DNA of 64,000 nucleotides from Candidatus Abawacabacteria bacterium (GTDB taxonomy: Bacteria > Patescibacteriota > Gracilibacteria > RBG-16-42-10). Below, piece after piece: positions 15,054 to 37,383 of this stretch. The position numbers were made by a program, and so were the translations under genes. The number at the start of each line of letters is the position of its first letter. Positions within the stretch are counted from its first letter, which is position 1. The stretch is taken from contig JACQZO010000007.1 of assembly GCA_016207805.1 (NCBI GenBank), forward strand, positions 1,964 to 65,963. The letters are read 5' to 3'. The notes beneath the pieces are model-generated. The model was not told the DNA's origin. It saw nothing but the letters and a program-made list of their open reading frames with translations, and made no database searches.

Positions 15054-15188
15054 CGAGGTCACTTGTGACCGAGTCTGGATCCTTGATCCTGTTTCCGGAA
15101 GATGTAGTCTACAAAAAGACTTTCTGACCTCAAGGAAATAGGAGCCAGGAAAGAGGAATAGTAGATCTCAACAAGAGTCTCACATTAT

Positions 15189-15265: not shown

Positions 15266-15463
15266 TACGAGCTCGCACCAATCCAGGCGAGCAAGTCTTA
15301 TTCCTCGTTCCTCATTCCTAGGAGCCCTTTTTATATGTGGTACTTTTCGCGAGCTCAAGGAGTGAGGAAGAAGGAACTAGGAATTGAGCGGCTTAGACCA
15401 ATATACAGCAGAGCTATTTACATATTCTCAAATCGTAGTACAGTAAATTTCTTAAGTTTTTCG

Positions 15464-22905: not shown

Positions 22906-24036
22906 TCAATATCTGTAGGTGGCTAGGATGGGCTCTTGGAAGTCTTCTTGGATATGTACTTGGCCATTATTTTTGATGGTTTCTATGGTGGCTAGATTGA
23001 TTAGCTCATGATCGTATGGCAATGGCTTTCGATGCAGATCTACTGACATGGTTTCAGGGTCAAACTTGCCCCATAGTTCACTTTCACCATTGATGAGCAT
23101 CTCGTGTATGCGGCCACTATGAGCAGCAACTAAAATAGCTTCAGGCGCTATCGATCCCTTACCATTGGCAATTAGACTGGCGTATTTGTTAGCAACAGTA
23201 TCGGCATTGATAGTGAACGTTTCAGCCAAGAGCTGATAGCCTTCTTGAGCTAATTCTTTGTCTGATTTGAGATCAGCATTGCCGATAATCGCTTTATCCA
23301 GATAATAGGGATAATGACTCAATTGGCGGTAGCGACTGAGATGCCGTTCGGTACCAGCTAAGATGACGAAGTTTTTATTGGAGAGAAATAACTTTTGGAT
23401 AGCTTTGTCAATCATGCGAAAGAAAAGGGTAATATCATTTTTACCTTCATCTTTTTGGCCGCCATGACCATGAACAAAACCAGCACGACCATAGTTGGCA
23501 TTACCATGAGTTTGTAAATGTTCTTCGAGAGCAACGTACTGAAACTCTTCTTCTAAGGAATGAGGGACATCTTTTAAAAAGATACTTTCTCCTTGACCAT
23601 GGGAACAATAAACTAAGTGGGCATTCGCAAGACTGAGAGCCAAAATATAAAAGTCCTTTTCATACAGGGTAGCTTTTAATAGGGGGATAATGTAAAAGGC
23701 ATTATCGACAGTTACTTTGTTTGTCACTTCATAGGGCAGAAAGTAATAAGAAAAATGATTGCTGGAGGCAAAAATAGCAACGCCTTTTTGTGCTTTTTGC
23801 CAGAATGAACCATTCGTGAGCAATGTTTTGGCTTTAGATAGAATACGATTACTAGCTTTGGGCTCCAACCCTCGTTCCGCTAATTGTCTCTCTGCTTCAT
23901 GCATTAAATTCTTCCATTGAATAATTTCTTTACTGCTACCTTGACCTGATGCACTGGCAGTGAAATAAAAAGAGACTCCTGGCTCCGGGGTGGCCTGAAT
24001 TAACTTTTGTAGAGCTGCCTGGGTAAGAATAGTCAT
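22906..24036 (-). CDS. hypothetical protein, possibly a bacterial archaeo-eukaryotic release-factor-like (baeRF) family member
   Basis: The N-terminal pattern L.KLI....EPGVSFYFTAS...KEIIQWKNLMHEAERQL and the later FYILALSLANAHLV match my recollection of baeRF family proteins. Not verified. Confidence 0.4.
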   Translation of the reverse strand: MTILTQAALQKLIQATPEPGVSFYFTASASGQGSSKEIIQWKNLMHEAERQLAERGLEPKASNRILSKAKTLLTNGSFWQKAQKGVAIFASSNHFSYYFLPYEVTNKVTVDNAFYIIPLLKATLYEKDFYILALSLANAHLVYCSHGQGESIFLKDVPHSLEEEFQYVALEEHLQTHGNANYGRAGFVHGHGGQKDEGKNDITLFFRMIDKAIQKLFLSNKNFVILAGTERHLSRYRQLSHYPYYLDKAIIGNADLKSDKELAQEGYQLLAETFTINADTVANKYASLIANGKGSIAPEAILVAAHSGRIHEMLINGESELWGKFDPETMSVDLHRKPLPYDHELINLATIETIKNNGQVHIQEDFQEPILATYRY

Positions 24037-32967: not shown

Positions 32968-33213
32968 CTAATATTGCAATATCCTTTTCTTTAAAACAGC
33001 CTTCCCTGAACCAGTCTTAAAATAGCTCTCTAACTTATGTACCTGCACTTCAGTCGGCAAAACAATATAACCAACAAGTCCTAATGGTCGGTAATGTTTG
33101 GTGGATTGGACATTGCCATCAGTATGTTGCTGTAGTCTTCTTTTCAGATTGCCGGTTGAGCCAATATATAGAAAATCTGATTGCTGACTTTTGAGGAAGT
33201 AAACAAAAAACAT
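32968..33213 (-). CDS. GIY-YIG nuclease family protein (small stand-alone, YhbQ-like)
   Basis: FFVYFLKS...DFLYIGSTGNLKRRLQQH is the GIY...YIG...R motif. 81 aa. Confidence 0.8.
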   Translation of the reverse strand: MFFVYFLKSQQSDFLYIGSTGNLKRRLQQHTDGNVQSTKHYRPLGLVGYIVLPTEVQVHKLESYFKTGSGKAVLKKRILQY

Positions 33214-33352
33214 AGATAAAGATTAAGCTCTATCTAGTGTAGTGGAGGAAAAATGAAACTTTGGTTCACCTGCTTATTTGTTGAGAATATAAAAAGCTAG
33301 CTCAGTAGTGAGCTGTAAATGATCATTAGGCATTCTTGCATGCCGTGGCATT

Positions 33353-33486
33353 GCCTGCGCGCTAATCGCGACTTCGGCAGCCTAGCACTGCGCTGACTCA
33401 GCGGAGAGCAATGTCTTCAAACAAACAGACATGTAAAACTACCCTTCAGAGATGGCCCCGCCAGCCGAAGCTCTCCGAGCGCAGGC
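33353..33486 (-). ncRNA. GC-rich structured element, copy 1, starting directly after the CCA of tRNA-Val (class unknown)
   Basis: Roughly four-fifths identical by eye to 35148-35287, with 36 nt next to the tRNA showing 1 mismatch. Terminal inverted repeat GCCTGCGC/GCGCAGGC. Internal hairpins show compensatory differences between the copies. The strand is assumed from the tRNA orientation. Confidence 0.5.
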
Positions 33487-33562
33487 TGGTGGACAGTACA
33501 GGACTCGAACCTGTGACCCTCTCGGTGTAAACGAGATGCTCTACCAACTGAGCTAACTGTCC
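33487..33562 (-). tRNA. tRNA-Val (anticodon UAC), CCA encoded
   Basis: Reverse complement: GGACAGT TA GCTC AGTTGGTA GAGC A TCTCG TTTACAC CGAGA GGGTC ACAGG TTCGAGT CCTGT ACTGTCC A CCA. Confidence 0.9.
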
Positions 33563-33598: not shown

Positions 33599-33627
33599 AC
33601 TATAACGATGTTTAAATTAGCTGACAA
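33599..33627 (-). promoter_or_regulatory. sigma70-like promoter upstream of tRNA-Val
   Basis: Minus strand: TTGTCA (33622-33627), a 17-nt spacer, then TATAGT (33599-33604), 36 nt before the tRNA 5' end. Confidence 0.4.
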
Positions 33628-34404: not shown

Positions 34405-35067
34405 TTACAAGGCATCTTTTTTGTCACCTAATATTTCTTGTAAACTAAAAATATCCTTTCCTACCCACTCGACAGAAATACATTCCAAAAGGAACTCTTC
34501 TCCTGCTGAACCTGGATTGTAAAGTGGATCACCACACAAAGGATTCCCAATAGCAGCCAAATGTACACGTATTTGATGACGCGCACCCTGAGTAATAGCT
34601 ATTTCTAGTAGCGTATTTCCCCCAATTAATTTAACTACTCGATAATCCGTAATAGAGTCTCGCCATTGTCCCCTCTTTTTCTGTCCCGCATCTTTATAAA
34701 CAATCATTCGTGACTTCTTGGTGGGATGATGCGCAATTGGCCAATCGATGTAACCAGCAGCTCTTTCCATATGTCCCAACACTTTGGCAAGGTACTTCTT
34801 CTTAATTTTTCCCTCATCTGCTGCTTTGATGAATGATTTGAACGCTTGATCATTGCAAGCAAACAAAACCAAGCCTGAAGTAATAGTATCAAGTCTATAC
34901 AATAAACCTCCTTCACCCACCTTAAATCCATTCACTTGAGATAATTCAGGAAATTGAACAAGTACCTGTTCTACCAATGAATCCGGCTTTTCTCCTGGCG
35001 TGGTTGGTACATTAGCAGGTTTATATACCATTAAATAGTCGCCTTTCTTTTTGTATTGTAATACCAC
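34405..35067 (-). CDS. RluA family pseudouridine synthase (no S4 domain)
   Basis: YLMVYKPANV, the catalytic-loop LYRLDTITSGLVLFA (HRLD..TSG variant), KKYLAKV, and GARHQIRVHLA. GTG start. Confidence 0.8.
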   Translation of the reverse strand: MVLQYKKKGDYLMVYKPANVPTTPGEKPDSLVEQVLVQFPELSQVNGFKVGEGGLLYRLDTITSGLVLFACNDQAFKSFIKAADEGKIKKKYLAKVLGHMERAAGYIDWPIAHHPTKKSRMIVYKDAGQKKRGQWRDSITDYRVVKLIGGNTLLEIAITQGARHQIRVHLAAIGNPLCGDPLYNPGSAGEEFLLECISVEWVGKDIFSLQEILGDKKDAL

Positions 35068-35147
35068 TAGAAAATTTTAAGTATTCCAAGAATAAGGAAG
35101 ATTCATGGGAAATACAAACAATAAAATATTCTTAGGCAACATGGCTA

Positions 35148-35287
35148 CCTGCGCGTCGCATGAACGACGACTTCGGTCGCCTAGCACTGCGCTGGCTCAG
35201 CGGAGTGCATTATCTGCGAACAAGCAGACATGGCAAACTAAGCCTATCAGTGATGGCCGCGCCAGCCGAAGCTCTCCGAGCGCAGGC
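35148..35287 (-). ncRNA. GC-rich structured element, copy 2, starting directly after the CCA of tRNA-Leu (class unknown)
   Basis: Homologous to 33353-33486 (see that entry). The track ORF 35105-35413 (+) is an artefact of this GC-rich block. Confidence 0.5.
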
Positions 35288-35373
35288 TGGTGCTGTGGAG
35301 AGGACTTGAACCTCCACCCCCTTGCGAGGACCAGCCCCTCAAGCTGGCGTGTCTGCCATTCCACCACCACAGC
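35288..35373 (-). tRNA. tRNA-Leu (anticodon GAG), long variable arm, CCA encoded
   Basis: Reverse complement: GCTGTGG...CCAGC TTGAGGG GCTGG TCCTCGCAAGGGGGT GGAGG TTCAAGT CCTCT CCACAGC A CCA. Confidence 0.88.
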
Positions 35374-35378
35374 ATGTC

Positions 35379-35412
35379 AATTACTAATTCCCAATTACGA
35401 ATTACTAATTTG
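35379..35412. repeat. degenerate heptanucleotide array (CAATTAC TAATTCC CAATTAC GAATTAC TAATTTG)
   Basis: Direct reading. It lies between the rplU stop and the tRNA-Leu 5' end. Confidence 0.8.
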
Positions 35413-35424
35413 AGGGGAGGGATA

Positions 35425-35821: not shown

Positions 35822-36859
35822 CTAATTAATAAGCAAGTTATAAGCAATCTTAGCAATTTCAGAGCGGCGAACAGATTGATTGGGGTAGAAGTTATTATTC
35901 TGACCAGAAACTATACCTTCATTGGCAGCGTAGTCAGTATATGCACGTTGCATTGGGGCTGCTACATCAGAAAATGATTGTGCTGAGCTCGCATTGAACA
36001 TGCTGATTTCATTTTGCTTTTGAAAAGCATTTAATAAAATCTGTAAACATTCAAAACGAGTAGCAGGTCGATCTGGATAGAAATAAGTACCTGACTCAAT
36101 AATGCTCACCATTTCCGCTATTTCTATATAACGAAACATAGCATGACTAGGAGGGACATCCTCAAATGTGAGTACAGGAATTTCTAGTGTTGGGCAATCT
36201 GGAAAGCAGGAGGAAATGGTATCACGATGCAAACCCTTAGCTAAAGCGGCATTTACTGCGATCTTCACTACTTCAGCTCTAGTAATAGAATTTTCTGGGC
36301 CAAAATTGCCATTACCATAGCCACGGACAATCCTTCTAGTATAGAGATCCATGATATAGCTATAGGCCCAATAACTTGCTGGAACATCCTTAAATGTGGT
36401 GGTTGGAGTGTTAATTACTATTGTTTTTCTCAACTCTTGATGAATGGGGCTAGCGACATTTACTTGAATGCTATAAGGCCCTTCACCAACTTGAAGATAT
36501 GGAGGAGCAACACATTGAGCGCCAGGAGGACAGTTGGTATAAAACTTTTGATTCCAAGTATCTACTACTTTTGTTTCAAAAGGAGCCAAAGTGATACTGC
36601 GAAAGTCCATAGTACAAAGAGCTAGCGGATCTAACAAAGAAAGCTCATTATTGTTACGATCAAACACTCTAAAGAAACGATGGCATTGCCCCATTTCATC
36701 GATAGTAATGTTACCGCTAGTATCATTAGTAACTTTAATTTGGATTGTTTCCCCTGCAGAATAAGTATTCTGCAGGTTAAGATGGGCTACTGAAGGTGGT
36801 AGAGATACTGGCGCTGTAGTTACCAATGTAGCTGTGAGTAGCGAAATGAAGGTGATCAT
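35822..36859 (-). CDS. secreted SLH-domain protein
   Basis: Signal-like MITFISLLTATLVTTAPVS. Three C-terminal SLH repeats: FKDVPASYWAYSYI...GYGNGNFGPENSITRAEV, FEDVPPSHAMFRYI, FSDVAAPMQRAY...NFYPNQSVRRSEIAKI. Confidence 0.75.
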   Translation of the reverse strand: MITFISLLTATLVTTAPVSLPPSVAHLNLQNTYSAGETIQIKVTNDTSGNITIDEMGQCHRFFRVFDRNNNELSLLDPLALCTMDFRSITLAPFETKVVDTWNQKFYTNCPPGAQCVAPPYLQVGEGPYSIQVNVASPIHQELRKTIVINTPTTTFKDVPASYWAYSYIMDLYTRRIVRGYGNGNFGPENSITRAEVVKIAVNAALAKGLHRDTISSCFPDCPTLEIPVLTFEDVPPSHAMFRYIEIAEMVSIIESGTYFYPDRPATRFECLQILLNAFQKQNEISMFNASSAQSFSDVAAPMQRAYTDYAANEGIVSGQNNNFYPNQSVRRSEIAKIAYNLLIN

Positions 36860-36969
36860 AGAGATTATGTTTCTGTTAGTGAGTACGCAAGCTTGAGAGA
36901 GTGTGTTACCCGGAAAACCCCTTTTGCATTTCGCCTTATCGAAGGGGAAGTTTAATGTGTTTATTAAGC

Positions 36970-37383
36970 TTATTCTCGAGACCAAGTGTTCCTTCCCTTA
37001 CTTAAGAGAAGGTGACGAGGATGGGTTTGCAATACCCAAGTCACTATAGCATGCTCCACTTGCTCTACCTGATCCAACACATCATTATTTGTAAACCGTA
37101 GCACGGTAATGCCAAACTTTTCATTTAGCACTTTGGACCGCCATTGATCATAGATAAGTTGATTCTTATGGTAGCCGCCATCGACTTCAATCACTAAGCG
37201 CAATTTAGAACAATAGAAATCAGCGATAAAGTTGGCTAATGGCTTTTGGCGTAAGAACTTAAAACCTAATAGCTGCCTTCTGCGCAAGAGTTGCCAAAGC
37301 TTGTGTTCGGCAGTAGTCAAAGGCTTTCTATTCTTACGAGCAAATGTTTTTAGTTTTTTATTGTAAGCAAAGAAATAAGGCAT
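36970..37383 (-). CDS. DUF559 (Vsr/restriction-endonuclease-like) domain protein
   Basis: LT.AE.KLWQLLRRRQLLGFKFLRQKPL.NFIADFYC..L.LVIEVDG..H...VLRF.NNDV is the classical DUF559 pattern. Confidence 0.8.
   Translation of the reverse strand: MPYFFAYNKKLKTFARKNRKPLTTAEHKLWQLLRRRQLLGFKFLRQKPLANFIADFYCSKLRLVIEVDGGYHKNQLIYDQWRSKVLNEKFGITVLRFTNNDVLDQVEQVEHAIVTWVLQTHPRHLLLSKGRNTWSRE

What the first reader, a model, noticed from the sequence alone, without database searches (positions are those of the whole stretch)
35148..35287. Second copy of the tRNA-trailing GC-rich element, after tRNA-Leu(GAG)
The architecture matches 33353-33486. On the minus strand the tRNA is followed by CCA and then GCCUGCGCUCGGAGAGCUUCGGCUGGCGCGGCCAUC..., ending in ...CGACGCGCAGG. 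Weaker similarity continues about 20 nt further (to ~35128), into a small hairpin followed by a U-rich stretch (AAGAAUAUUUUAUUGUUUG) that could terminate the tRNA-element transcript. The downstream gene here is an RluA pseudouridine synthase rather than a nuclease, so association with the GIY-YIG gene is not obligatory. Two different tRNAs carrying the same trailer argues for either a mobile tRNA-3'-end-targeting element or a deliberately co-transcribed and processed small RNA family. The ORF-track entry 35105-35413 (+) is explained away by this element.
Basis: partly seen in the sequence, partly recalled or inferred. Interest (0 to 1): 0.7.

Follow-up and report, generated by a model that had tools for sequence, protein, structure and literature searches.

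The report
Structured RNA fused to tRNA ends
A conserved, roughly 150-base folded RNA of unknown function sits directly after the CCA end of several tRNA genes in a few candidate-phyla bacteria. Its first hairpin base-pairs with the tRNA's own CCA tail, and it matches no catalogued RNA family.

Summary
tRNA-Leu(GAG) (35288-35373, minus) is followed directly after CCA by a GC-rich element.

It is not a chance repeat or a neutral spacer. I found 10 copies in four Peregrinibacteria-lineage genomes, after tRNA-Leu, tRNA-Val and tRNA-Ile, some in tandem. Between genomes the element is 79-85% identical, while flanking genes are 62-69% identical at DNA level.

No Rfam family matches. No transposase or reverse transcriptase lies nearby.

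Compensatory changes support three features:
- a 5' hairpin whose outer stem includes the tRNA's CCA (CCAGCC/GGCUGG, CCAUCC/GGAUGG, CAAGCC/GGCUUG, CCAACC/GGUUGG);
- a competing long-range helix P1;
- a 3' domain (P4/P5).

Orthologous tRNAs in related genomes lack the element. At tRNA-Val it is followed by a small GIY-YIG nuclease gene in all four genomes.

Best reading: a new structured RNA transcribed as the tRNA trailer, clamped to CCA in the precursor and probably refolding once separated. Function and processing are inferred, not shown.

The parts
35288..35373 (-). tRNA-Leu(GAG), genomically encoded CCA at 35290-35288
   Evidence: ARAGORN; Rfam tRNA 51.6 bits
35140..35287 (-). Leu copy of the tRNA-trailing element (conserved core; the finding)
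   Evidence: Sequence; covariance model hits 133-140 bits; 82% identical to the Val copy
35262..35290 (-). M1 'CCA-clamp' hairpin: outer stem CCAGCC (35290-35285, first three bases are the tRNA's CCA) with GGCUGG (35267-35262); inner hairpin GCUC-GGA-GAGC (35281-35271)
   Evidence: Coordinates. All five distinct variants are 100% paired, with three compensated cells. Helices of 6 bp or more starting at C74 occur only in this trailer type, the 41-nt mini form and the 242-nt Abawacabacteria insert
35271..35285 (-). 5' strand of long-range helix P1 (CUGCGCUCGGAGAGC); overlaps M1, so P1a and the M1 inner hairpin exclude each other
   Evidence: RNAalifold consensus; pair counts
35187..35208 (-). 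3' strand of P1 (GCACUCCG ... AGCGCAG) with conserved 7-nt bulge CUGAGCC (35200-35194)
   Evidence: GGA/UCC becomes UGC/GCA in the P_Val copy
35252..35266 (-). P2 hairpin (GCUGGC-GCG-GCCAUC); shares GGCUGG with M1, so the two exclude each other
   Evidence: one compensated pair, in Y_Val; the second pair is often mismatched
35209..35251 (-). Central variable region with a local hairpin (UGUCUGC/GCAGAUA) and a U-rich stretch
   Evidence: Alignments; MFE fold
35143..35181 (-). 3' domain: P4 (GGCGACC / GGUAGCC) enclosing GAAGU, variable hairpin P5 (CGUCG/CGACG) and CGCA
   Evidence: P4 pair 118:179 is A-U in 4 copies and G-C in 4. P5 has five different stem sequences across the copies
35110..35139 (-). 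3' extension: weak similarity to the Val copy (UGCCUAAG) and a U-rich run; not a scan-detectable terminator
34405..35067 (-). RluA-family pseudouridine synthase gene, same strand, about 72 nt downstream of the Leu copy
   Evidence: Pfam PF00849 in homologues; NCBIfam rluA_subfam
33487..33562 (-). tRNA-Val(TAC)
33344..33486 (-).
33599..33627 (-). Promoter-like site TTGTCA-17-TATAGT upstream of tRNA-Val; the same hexamers precede tRNA-Val in the Peribacteria MAG
33289..33314 (-). Intrinsic-terminator-like hairpin plus T-run after the Val copy (window-specific insertion relative to the other genomes)
32968..33213 (-). 81-aa GIY-YIG nuclease gene downstream of the Val copy; linkage conserved in four genomes
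   Evidence: Pfam PF01541; loci L044, L045, L047

Best explanation
The element is a member of a previously uncatalogued family of structured RNAs, about 140-180 nt long. It is transcribed as the 3' trailer of tRNA genes in a small clade of Peregrinibacteria-lineage (CPR) bacteria.

Shown:
- It starts at the first base after the encoded CCA of tRNA-Leu(GAG), tRNA-Val(TAC) and tRNA-Ile(GAU).
- It is under stronger sequence constraint than the neighbouring protein genes.
- Its helices keep pairing through compensatory changes.
- Its first 26 nt fold back on the tRNA's CCA: the outer stem is CCA+GCC with GGCUGG, and the inner hairpin is GCUC-NNN-GAGC.
- The same 5' bases are complementary to distal segments (P1, P2), which also co-vary.

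Inferred:
- In the primary transcript the CCA-clamp hairpin forms first and holds the tRNA 3' end in a duplex. This would define or delay 3'-end and RNase P processing.
- Once the tRNA is cut off (or in tandem copies that lack the CCA strand), the 5' strand pairs instead with the distal strand (P1/P2). This gives a compact two-domain RNA (P1/P2 plus P4/P5).
- That RNA persists either as a stable small RNA or as the structured 5' end of the downstream mRNA (GIY-YIG, RluA).
- Its invariant unpaired blocks (UUCG, CUGAGYC, UGCUA, GAAGU) are the likely contact surface for an unknown partner.

Copies spread among tRNA trailers and amplify in tandem by recombination, not by a dedicated transposase.
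For: Junction and copies. The junction is exact at the 5 intact-tRNA junctions, involving three tRNA species. There are 10 copies in four genomes.

Constraint. Identity between genomes is 79-85% for the element, against 62% for RluA DNA, 69% for YdjM DNA and 54% for the spacer. Blocks of 24-27 nt are identical.

Covariation:
- M1 outer stem is CCAGCC/GGCUGG, CCAUCC/GGAUGG, CAAGCC/GGCUUG or CCAACC/GGUUGG. It is 100% paired, and 4 of 500 shuffles reach the observed score.
- In P1b, GGA/UCC becomes UGC/GCA.
- P4 is A-U in 4 copies and G-C in 4.
- P5 has five different stems.
- An optional extra hairpin is CCUCC/GGAGG in one copy and CCUCU/AGAGG in another.

Other support:
- CCA-containing helices of 6 bp or more occur only in this trailer type and two related forms: 7 of 13 surveyed tRNAs.
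- The Val unit has a promoter-like site, shared with the Peribacteria MAG, and a terminator.
- Tandem copies that lack the CCA strand favour P1/P2 by 9-14 kcal/mol. tRNA-linked copies fold as M1 equally well or better in 5 of 6 cases.
- There is no Rfam match at E<10 for four copies.
- No transposase, RT or integrase lies nearby.
Against: - There are no expression or processing data, so the RNA product, its ends and any refolding are inferred.
- Covariation rests on 8-10 sequences from 4-5 metagenome-derived genomes, with a handful of independent events. P2 has one compensated pair and a frequent mismatch.
- Much of P1 and the M1 inner stem never vary, so they are uninformative.
- The M1 outer stem and P1b could coexist as a pseudoknot, so a switch is not required.
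- Predicted energies of the alternative folds differ by less than the error of the method after 'cleavage'. In both window copies the plain MFE is a third fold.
- The family is very narrow: one hit genome among 185,579 species representatives and none in JGI metagenomes, with the exact patterns used.
- Presence or absence at orthologous tRNAs shows it is dispensable.
Confidence: 0.55

Rival explanations
1. It is a cis-acting 5' leader or stabiliser of the downstream mRNA. The tRNA supplies the promoter, and cleavage after CCA leaves an mRNA whose 5' end is locked in helix P1. That would protect it from 5'-end-dependent RNases or regulate translation of GIY-YIG or RluA.
For: - At all seven loci a same-strand gene starts 72-145 nt downstream.
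- In three of four Val loci no terminator separates the element from GIY-YIG.
- P1 begins 2 nt from the presumed cleavage site.
Against: - The downstream genes are unrelated: GIY-YIG, RluA and a secreted protein.
- The window Val copy is followed by a canonical terminator.
- Near-invariant 24-27-nt blocks exceed what a stabilising hairpin needs.
- Tandem copies are hard to explain.
Confidence: 0.15
2. It is a selfish mobile DNA repeat (MITE/REP-like, or an element that targets tRNA 3' ends). It is passively transcribed and its RNA fold is incidental.
For: - Orthologous tRNA-Leu and tRNA-Val sites are empty in related genomes.
- tRNA-adjacent copies have an 8-bp terminal inverted repeat, GCCTGCGC/GCGCAGGC.
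- The junction is identical at three different tRNAs.
- Assemblies break at the element.
- In L044 and L048 the element is preceded only by the last 9-11 nt of a tRNA.
Against: - No transposase, integrase or RT in the window neighbourhood or in the other loci.
- No target-site duplication beyond CCA.
- Tandem copies lack the left repeat.
- The inverted-repeat pairing does not co-vary (col 7:179 is U.U in P_Val), while the competing helix P4 does.
- Variation is confined to hairpins that keep pairing, and the hairpin nearest the right end varies within one genome.
- Only 2-5 copies were seen per genome.
Confidence: 0.12
3. It is a new self-cleaving ribozyme that releases the tRNA 3' end. This would be a functional analogue of the HDV-like theta ribozymes found after phage tRNAs.
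For: - It abuts the tRNA 3' end exactly.
- It has highly conserved unpaired nucleotides in junctions, and pseudoknot-capable pairings.
- Theta ribozymes set a precedent for ribozymes directly downstream of tRNAs (PMC10879173).
Against: - No hit to any Rfam ribozyme family at E<10.
- The HDV-like fold fails. The candidate L3 loop is variable and lacks the CC needed for P1.1, no GG follows P1, and there is no P2 (sequence reading).
- The CCA|G junction lies in the middle of a regular 6-bp helix, an unfavourable geometry for in-line attack.
- Theta ribozymes mostly follow tRNAs without encoded CCA, and here CCA is encoded.
- Tandem copies have no tRNA to release.
Confidence: 0.08
4. It is the RNA partner of the adjacent 81-aa GIY-YIG nuclease: an antitoxin-like inhibitor, as in type III toxin-antitoxin loci, or a guide or specificity RNA. 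Extra copies at other tRNAs would serve as a reservoir.
For: - tRNA-Val, the element and GIY-YIG stay linked in four genomes although the outer flanks differ.
- Related genomes without the element at tRNA-Val also lack the GIY-YIG gene there.
- The layout promoter, RNA, (terminator), nuclease resembles type III TA loci.
- The protein is only a catalytic domain with no nucleic-acid-binding domain.
Against: - Leu and Ile copies have no GIY-YIG gene.
- Close GIY-YIG homologues (about 60% identity) are widespread in Bacteroidota and other phyla. I did not examine their loci, and the exact-pattern genome scan found the element in no other species.
- No convincing match to known defence or toxin families.
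- GIY-YIG enzymes are DNA nucleases by established knowledge.
Confidence: 0.06
5. It is a neutral remnant of a duplicated tRNA-operon spacer or terminator with no selected structure.
For: - A 41-nt 'mini' version in Abawacabacteria looks like a plain trailer hairpin followed by a U-run.
Against: - The element is more conserved than coding DNA between genomes whose spacers are unalignable.
- Compensatory changes occur in four helices.
Confidence: 0.03

Closest known systems
sRNAs co-transcribed with stable-RNA operons and released by processing (E. coli 3'ETS-leuZ tRNA-trailer sponge, from my own knowledge; rrA/rrB/rrF sRNAs at the ends of rRNA operons, PMC8144298; plant tRNA-snoRNA dicistrons, from my own knowledge)
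   Same: The RNA lies downstream of a stable RNA gene, uses its promoter, and is presumably released by the tRNA or rRNA processing machinery.
   Different: Those trailers are short, species-specific and poorly structured. This element is 140-180 nt and multi-helix, is shared by three tRNA species and four genomes, pairs with the tRNA's CCA, and occurs in tandem.
HDV-like theta ribozymes downstream of phage tRNAs (PMC10879173)
   Same: A structured RNA directly abutting the tRNA 3' end and implicated in trailer removal.
   Different: Theta ribozymes are about 50-60 nt, have the nested double pseudoknot, and mostly follow tRNAs without encoded CCA. This element is 3 times longer, fails the HDV-like fold, follows encoded CCA, and is cellular (CPR), not phage.
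T-box antiterminator bulge and RNase P L15 loop (UGG pairing with the tRNA NCCA end; established knowledge)
   Same: A 5'-UGG-3' segment base-pairs with C74-C75-A76 of a tRNA, and it takes part in mutually exclusive helices.
   Different: Here the pairing is in cis, within the tRNA's own precursor, and extends 3 bp into the trailer. There is no specifier loop, no T-box sequence and no terminator/antiterminator pair.
Dispersed structured intergenic repeats (ERIC/IRU, REP/BIME, Correia, RUP; from my own knowledge)
   Same: About 100-150-bp GC-rich imperfect palindromes, transcribed, variably present at orthologous intergenic sites, and strongly conserved between species.
   Different: Those insert in many kinds of intergenic sites and reach tens to hundreds of copies. 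This one starts precisely at tRNA CCA ends, has few copies, and co-varies as a multi-helix RNA rather than as one long palindrome.
Type III toxin-antitoxin loci (ToxIN; from my own knowledge)
   Same: An RNA element, sometimes in tandem, lies upstream of a small nuclease gene and is sometimes separated from it by a terminator.
   Different: ToxI repeats are 36 nt and are cut by the ToxN endoribonuclease. Here the protein is a GIY-YIG domain, the RNA is 150 nt and fused to a tRNA, and most copies have no nuclease gene.

Membership tests
Any Rfam 15 family | Covariance-model score at or above the family's gathering threshold | tested here: not met
   Only tRNA hits at gathering threshold in the window. 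At E<10 there are only chance-level hits for the window copies and for the diverged copies in L045, L047 and L048.
HDV-like / theta ribozyme | P1 starting at +1 and pairing just 3' of a short P3 hairpin whose loop L3 supplies CC for P1.1 with a GG after P1 | tested here: not met
   GCCUGCG could pair with CGCAGGY just after hairpin P5. However, the P5 loop is AUUAG, AUAG, UAAU, UUCAUG or UUU, so it is variable and has no CC. AUGCC or AGCC, not GG, follows. The pair +1:179 does not co-vary (U.U in P_Val).
HDV-like / theta ribozyme | P2 closing the nested double pseudoknot, and a catalytic C in J4/2 | tested here: not met
   No conserved 3' segment complementary to the region after P1. Conservation ends at GCCAYG.
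HDV-like / theta ribozyme | Self-cleavage activity | not testable with these tools
   Needs in vitro transcription and a cleavage assay.
MITE / small non-autonomous DNA transposon | Terminal inverted repeats present in all copies | tested here: not met
   An 8-bp inverted repeat occurs only in tRNA-adjacent copies. The tandem copies P_Leu2 and P_Ile2 lack the left arm.
MITE / small non-autonomous DNA transposon | Target-site duplication flanking the insert | tested here: inconclusive
   Only CCA recurs at both ends (tRNA CCA and ...GCCA). The 3' CCA is part of conserved helix P4.
MITE / small non-autonomous DNA transposon | Cognate transposase in the genome, and many dispersed copies | tested here: inconclusive
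   None found in 64 kb of window or about 180 kb of related loci, which hold 2-5 copies per genome. Whole genomes were not available.
T-box riboswitch | Conserved T-box sequence with a UGGN bulge in an antiterminator that competes with a terminator, plus a specifier loop, upstream of an aminoacyl-tRNA-related gene | tested here: not met
   No Rfam T-box hit. UGG pairs with CCA in cis. No terminator alternative was detected at the Leu copy.
Intrinsic terminator of the tRNA gene | GC-rich hairpin immediately followed by a U-run | tested here: not met
   The scan finds none inside or right after the Leu copy. The only one lies about 30 nt after the Val copy. The 41-nt mini form in L036 does end in CCAUUUU.
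Type III toxin-antitoxin | Tandem short RNA repeats upstream of a ToxN/AbiQ-type endoribonuclease gene | tested here: not met
   A single 150-nt copy lies upstream of GIY-YIG. The protein matches only the GIY-YIG Pfam family, with no convincing PADLOC hit.
tRNA-cotranscribed trailer RNA (functional class, not a sequence family) | Same strand as, and contiguous with, a tRNA gene, inside one promoter-terminator unit | tested here: met
   For the Val copy the order is promoter-like 33627-33599, tRNA, element, terminator 33314-33289. The same promoter hexamers occur in L045.
tRNA-cotranscribed trailer RNA (functional class, not a sequence family) | Detected as a discrete processed RNA | not testable with these tools
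   No transcriptome data are accessible.

The most novel reading that the evidence does not exclude
The element is a processing-coupled RNA device. Its first hairpin clamps the tRNA's own CCA end in the precursor and so gates RNase P, 3'-end maturation or aminoacylation. Release of the tRNA flips the RNA into a second, co-varying fold that is the active form of a new RNA. That RNA could be the specificity or inhibitory partner of the tightly linked domain-only GIY-YIG nuclease. Together they could form a module that colonises tRNA 3' ends.
Probability: 0.15. Interest if true: 0.85.

Novelty: new variant of a known kind. Interest (0 to 1): 0.62.

Why it matters
Candidate-phyla bacteria have tiny genomes and reduced RNase repertoires, and almost nothing is known about their non-coding RNAs or how they mature tRNAs.

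This is a conserved, multi-helix RNA that begins at the first base after CCA. It base-pairs with that CCA and carries a second, mutually exclusive set of co-varying pairings. That makes it a concrete, testable case of a tRNA precursor whose 3' end is held by its own trailer.

Depending on the outcome it could reveal one of three things:
- a new way of ordering tRNA processing;
- a new stable RNA with a protein partner;
- a new ribozyme.

The tight linkage to a minimal GIY-YIG nuclease at tRNA-Val adds a candidate protein partner.

If it proves to be only a lineage-specific structured trailer, it is still a clean new RNA family for Rfam. It is also a practical warning for annotators: it breaks assemblies and spawns a spurious 102-aa ORF.

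Tried and rejected
- **Rfam.** I searched at gathering threshold and at E<10 on four copies and found nothing but tRNAs.
- **Exact-pattern scans.**
  - Two viral scans gave only chance hits.
  - The JGI metagenome scan with two anchors gave 5 chance hits.
  - The GTDB species-representative scan gave one true genome.
- **BLAST.** The element has no match in the phage collection and only one chance-level match in the plasmid collection.
- **Spurious-ORF trick.** I searched the antisense translation of the element against 5.8 billion proteins to find other copies. No candidates came back.
- **Window protein look-up.** A contig look-up of the window's own RluA protein to get Pfam context returned nothing on record.
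- **TRF.** It did not report the tandem arrays in L017 or L031. Copies are too few or too diverged, and one is N-masked. The arrays were read directly instead.
- **Terminal stem.** GCCUGCGC/GCGCAGGC is the closing helix of both single-sequence MFE folds. I rejected it because the competing helix P4 co-varies and this stem does not.
- **Local hairpin.** CGCUG-AGY-CAGCG is not maintained in P_Val and X_Val, where the same changes are compensated in P1b instead.
- **HDV-like fold.** Rejected on loop variability and the missing P1.1 and P2.
- **5S rRNA, SRP RNA, RNase P and tmRNA.** Considered because of size and GC content. There were no model hits, and the multiple copies argue against them.
- **Small ORF.** A 16-codon ORF is shared by both window copies. 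It is not conserved in the other genomes (no AUG, frame broken by an indel), so I rejected it as coding.
- **GIY-YIG searches.** Phages, plasmids and PDB gave no match; NCBIfam and PADLOC gave only weak, below-cutoff hits.
- **The 242-nt Abawacabacteria insert.** Neither covariance model detects it, so I do not count it as a family member.
Full report
**1. The observation**

On the minus strand, ARAGORN and Rfam place tRNA-Leu(GAG) at 35288-35373, with CCA at 35290-35288, and tRNA-Val(TAC) at 33487-33562. Each is followed from the very next base by GCCUGCGCUCGGAGAGCUUCGGCUGGCG....

The two trailers share 31 identical bases across the junction and are 82-83% identical overall. Two conserved blocks occur exactly twice in the 64-kb window, against zero expected in shuffles. 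The region is a GC island of 55-68% in a 40% GC window.

At the 3' end the conserved core continues to 35140 (...GGUAGCCAUG). Weak similarity specific to the two window copies runs to about 35125.

The + strand ORF 35105-35413 runs antisense through the tRNA, and its element part has no protein homologue.

**2. Where else the element occurs**

Rfam has no family for it, at gathering threshold or at E<10.

An exact-pattern scan of 185,579 species-representative genomes found it in one other genome, a Candidatus Peribacteria MAG, CAZEGN01 (lineage). Viral and JGI-metagenome scans gave only chance hits. Phage and plasmid BLAST gave no real match.

Following protein synteny gave more copies:

| Genome | Locus | Copies and context |
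|---|---|---|
| Peribacteria MAG ('P') | tRNA-Leu(GAG), RluA locus | two tandem copies |
| Peribacteria MAG ('P') | tRNA-Ile(GAU) | two copies plus a truncated third, period about 195 nt |
| Peribacteria MAG ('P') | tRNA-Val(TAC) | one copy followed by a GIY-YIG gene |
| 'X' (GCA_020049755) | tRNA-Val | one copy followed by GIY-YIG |
| 'Y' (Logan ERR8482633) | tRNA-Val 3' end | one copy followed by GIY-YIG |

With the two window copies this makes 10 copies in four genomes. Two covariance models built from them find no further copy in 169-181 kb of window plus related loci. Short-read assemblies tend to break at the element, as expected for a repeat.

**3. Presence and absence**

The gene order LepA, L21, tRNA-Leu, RluA, YdjM, (tRNA-Val) is conserved in relatives whose RluA is 51-57% identical to the window's.

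In three of them (L024, L029, L035) tRNA-Leu is followed by a different, simpler trailer: CGA, a small hairpin, then a long pyrimidine-rich/purine-rich hairpin. tRNA-Val in L024, L026 and L029 also lacks the element. The same simple trailer follows tRNA-Gly and tRNA-Pro in the window.

An Abawacabacteria MAG carries a 41-nt 'mini' form at tRNA-Leu (CCA|ACCUGCGCUCUGCGAGCUUCGGUUGGCAGGCCAUUUU). Sister strains encoding the identical RluA protein have an unrelated-looking 242-nt insert at exactly the same spot.

So the position just after CCA is evolutionarily plastic, and the element is gained or lost.

**4. A selected RNA, not a neutral spacer**

Between the window organism and the Peribacteria MAG, identities are:

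| Sequence | Identity |
|---|---|
| Element | 79-85% |
| RluA DNA | 62% |
| YdjM DNA | 69% |
| Spacer between element and RluA | 54% (unalignable) |

Blocks of 24-27 nt are invariant in all copies. Differences cluster in a central region and in hairpins.

**5. Structure**

I aligned eight full copies (A4) and counted pairs for structures I specified.

- **(a) 3' domain.**
  - Helix P4 (GGCUGCC with GGCAUGCC) has one pair that is A-U in four copies and G-C in four.
  - P4 encloses GAAGU, a hairpin P5 and CA. P5 has five different stem sequences: CGCG/CGCG, CGUCG/CGACG, GUGU/ACAC, CCCC/GGGG and a 12-bp form.
  - Two copies from different genomes carry an extra hairpin, with CCUCC/GGAGG in one and CCUCU/AGAGG in the other.
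- **(b) 5' module M1.**
  - The tRNA's CCA plus the next three bases pair with GGCUGG 21-26 nt downstream. They enclose a small hairpin GCUC-NNN-GAGC.
  - The outer stem is CCAGCC/GGCUGG in most copies, CCAUCC/GGAUGG in P_Val, CAAGCC/GGCUUG in Y_Val and CCAACC/GGUUGG in the mini form.
  - All five distinct variants are fully paired, and 4 of 500 shuffles reach the observed covariation.
- **(c) Long-range helix P1.**
  - CUGCGCUCGGAGAGC pairs with GCUCUCCG-[CUGAGYC]-AGCGCAG.
  - The triloop of the M1 hairpin (GGA) faces UCC in P1. In P_Val it is UGC facing GCA, so two pairs are compensated, with a tandem G.A next to them. X_Val has UAC/GCA.
- **(d) Hairpin P2.**
  - GCUGGC-GGG-GCCAGC has one compensated pair (GCUUGC/GCAAUC in Y_Val) and a frequently mismatched second pair.

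The M1 inner stem excludes P1, and the M1 outer stem excludes P2. The M1 outer stem plus the P1b part could coexist as an H-type pseudoknot, which is my topological inference. So the RNA either switches between two folds or forms a pseudoknot around the tRNA-trailer junction.

Constrained folding places the alternatives within about 10 kcal/mol of each other. In 5 of the 6 tRNA-linked copies M1 is as good as P1/P2 or better. The two tandem copies that lack the CCA strand favour P1/P2 by 9-14 kcal/mol. After removal of the tRNA in silico the difference is within the method's error.

The closing stem GCCUGCGC/GCGCAGG predicted for single sequences is not supported. Its terminal pair is U.U in P_Val, whereas the same 3' base co-varies perfectly within P4.

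In a survey of the 13 tRNAs with an encoded CCA end in my loci, contiguous helices of 6 bp or more starting at C74 occur only in this trailer, the mini form and the 242-nt insert (7 of 13). The partner lies at +28 to +31 in every case.

**6. Transcription context**

The Val copy lies between a promoter-like site (TTGTCA-17-TATAGT, 33627-33599) and a canonical terminator (33314-33289). The same promoter hexamers precede tRNA-Val in the Peribacteria MAG. The terminator is a window-specific insertion. In the other three genomes about 90-110 U-rich nt lead directly into the GIY-YIG start codon.

RluA starts 72 nt downstream on the same strand. At all seven loci a same-strand gene follows within 72-145 nt.

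**7. The GIY-YIG link**

The 81-aa protein is a bare GIY-YIG catalytic domain. Its four closest homologues (100, 88, 77 and 67% identity) all lie directly downstream of a tRNA-Val element copy. In the Peribacteria MAG the trio sits in a different genomic neighbourhood from the window's. Relatives without the element at tRNA-Val also have no GIY-YIG gene there.

The Leu and Ile copies have no such gene. More distant homologues at about 60% identity are widespread in other phyla.

The protein has no match in the phage or plasmid collections or in the PDB. NCBIfam and PADLOC gave only weak, below-cutoff hits.

**8. What it most likely is**

A new family of structured RNAs made as tRNA 3' trailers.

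- *Shown:* the exact CCA junction, strong sequence constraint, co-varying helices, the CCA-containing hairpin, and one clean promoter-to-terminator unit.
- *Inferred:* the clamp forms co-transcriptionally and holds CCA in a duplex, which would interfere with RNase P's CCA contact and with exonucleases. The tRNA is cut off at or near CCA. The remainder then adopts the P1/P2 plus P4/P5 fold, as a stable RNA or as the 5' end of the downstream mRNA. Copies spread between tRNA trailers and amplify in tandem by recombination.

I give this 0.55 overall. The 'selected, tRNA-cotranscribed structured RNA' part alone I would put near 0.75.

**9. Rivals**

| Rival | Confidence | Main points |
|---|---|---|
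| cis-acting leader or stabiliser of the downstream mRNA | 0.15 | Supported by the constant same-strand gene. Weakened by unrelated genes, the window terminator and over-conserved sequence. |
| Selfish DNA repeat targeting tRNA ends | 0.12 | Supported by empty sites and the identical junction. Weakened by absence of a transposase or target-site duplication, tandem copies lacking one end, and hairpin-confined variation. |
| New self-cleaving ribozyme | 0.08 | Precedent in theta ribozymes (PMC10879173). The HDV-like fold fails, and the junction lies inside a regular helix. |
| RNA partner of the GIY-YIG nuclease | 0.06 | Supported by linkage at tRNA-Val. Weakened by the Leu and Ile copies having no such gene. 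|
| Neutral spacer | 0.03 | Contradicted by conservation and covariation. |

**10. Comparison with known systems, and novelty**

It works like known trailer-derived RNAs of stable-RNA operons, such as 3'ETS-leuZ and the rrA/rrB/rrF sRNAs (PMC8144298). Positionally it resembles theta ribozymes. Its UGG:CCA pairing recalls the T-box antiterminator and the RNase P L15 loop, but in cis. It is a member of none of these; the membership table gives the tests.

I rate it a new variant of a known kind: a tRNA-cotranscribed structured RNA with an unprecedented CCA clamp and competing co-varying folds.

**11. Caveats**

- All genomes are metagenome-derived.
- Two contexts, L044 and L048, show only the last 9-11 nt of a tRNA upstream of the element. 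These may reflect island insertion or misassembly.
- Covariation rests on few independent events.
- There is no expression evidence.
- The family is narrow.

Noticed in passing
window 15054-15140 (after tRNA-Gly) and 15266-15400 (after tRNA-Pro), + strand; also L024:9069-9230, L029:9049-9240, L035:30-180: A second, commoner trailer architecture follows other tRNAs in this clade. It runs CCA, then CGA, a small GC hairpin, GAGUC or AAGUC, and a roughly 80-100-nt hairpin with a pyrimidine-rich arm (CUUAUCC/UUCCUC-like) and a purine-rich arm (GGAUAAG/GAGGAA-like). It replaces the GC-rich element at orthologous tRNA-Leu sites. Its function is unknown.
   Followed up: partly
L027:1107-1348 versus L036:1655-1695 (Abawacabacteria RBG_16_42_10 population): This is a strain-level polymorphism exactly after the CCA of tRNA-Leu. 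Strains encoding the identical RluA protein carry either a 41-nt mini form or a 242-nt structured insert. The first 9 paired bases of that insert also include the tRNA CCA (CCAAAAACC/GGUUUUUGG), and it ends in a terminator. The covariance models do not detect the insert.
   Followed up: partly
window 35181-35231 (-) and 33382-33432 (-): Both window copies contain an in-register 16-codon ORF from AUG to the conserved UAG: MSACSQIMHSAEPAQC and MSVCLKTLLSAESAQC. The copies in the other genomes lack the AUG, and an indel changes the frame, so it is probably not coding.
   Followed up: yes
L048:1-101 and L044:1-36: In two assemblies the same element plus GIY-YIG gene is preceded not by a whole tRNA but only by its last 9-11 nt (...GCGCCCACCA...ACUGUCCACCA). 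No tRNA is detectable in the upstream sequence available (about 100 nt in L048, only about 25 nt in L044). This could be the far side of an island integrated in the tRNA, a transposed copy that carried the tRNA end, or a misassembly at the repeat.
   Followed up: partly
L017:2687-2668 (-): The tandem array after tRNA-Ile ends in a truncated third unit, GCGCUCAGAGAGCUUCAGCG. This keeps the small hairpin GCUC-AGA-GAGC and nothing else. The first unit is interrupted by a masked N-run.
   Followed up: no
L001:1-4, L032:1, L039/L040/L042:1, L046, L049: Short-read (Logan) contigs repeatedly begin or end at the tRNA-element junction or inside the element. The element therefore fragments assemblies and will be under-represented in contig collections.
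   Followed up: partly
window 22906-24036 (-): A 376-aa protein matches bacterial archaeo-eukaryotic release-factor-like families (baeRF family 7/3, E about 1e-30). It is unrelated to the finding.
   Followed up: no
window 36970-37383 (-) and 35822-36985 (-): A DUF559 endonuclease-like gene overlaps the start of an SLH-domain surface protein gene by 16 nt. Both are inserted between LepA and L21 relative to related genomes.
   Followed up: no
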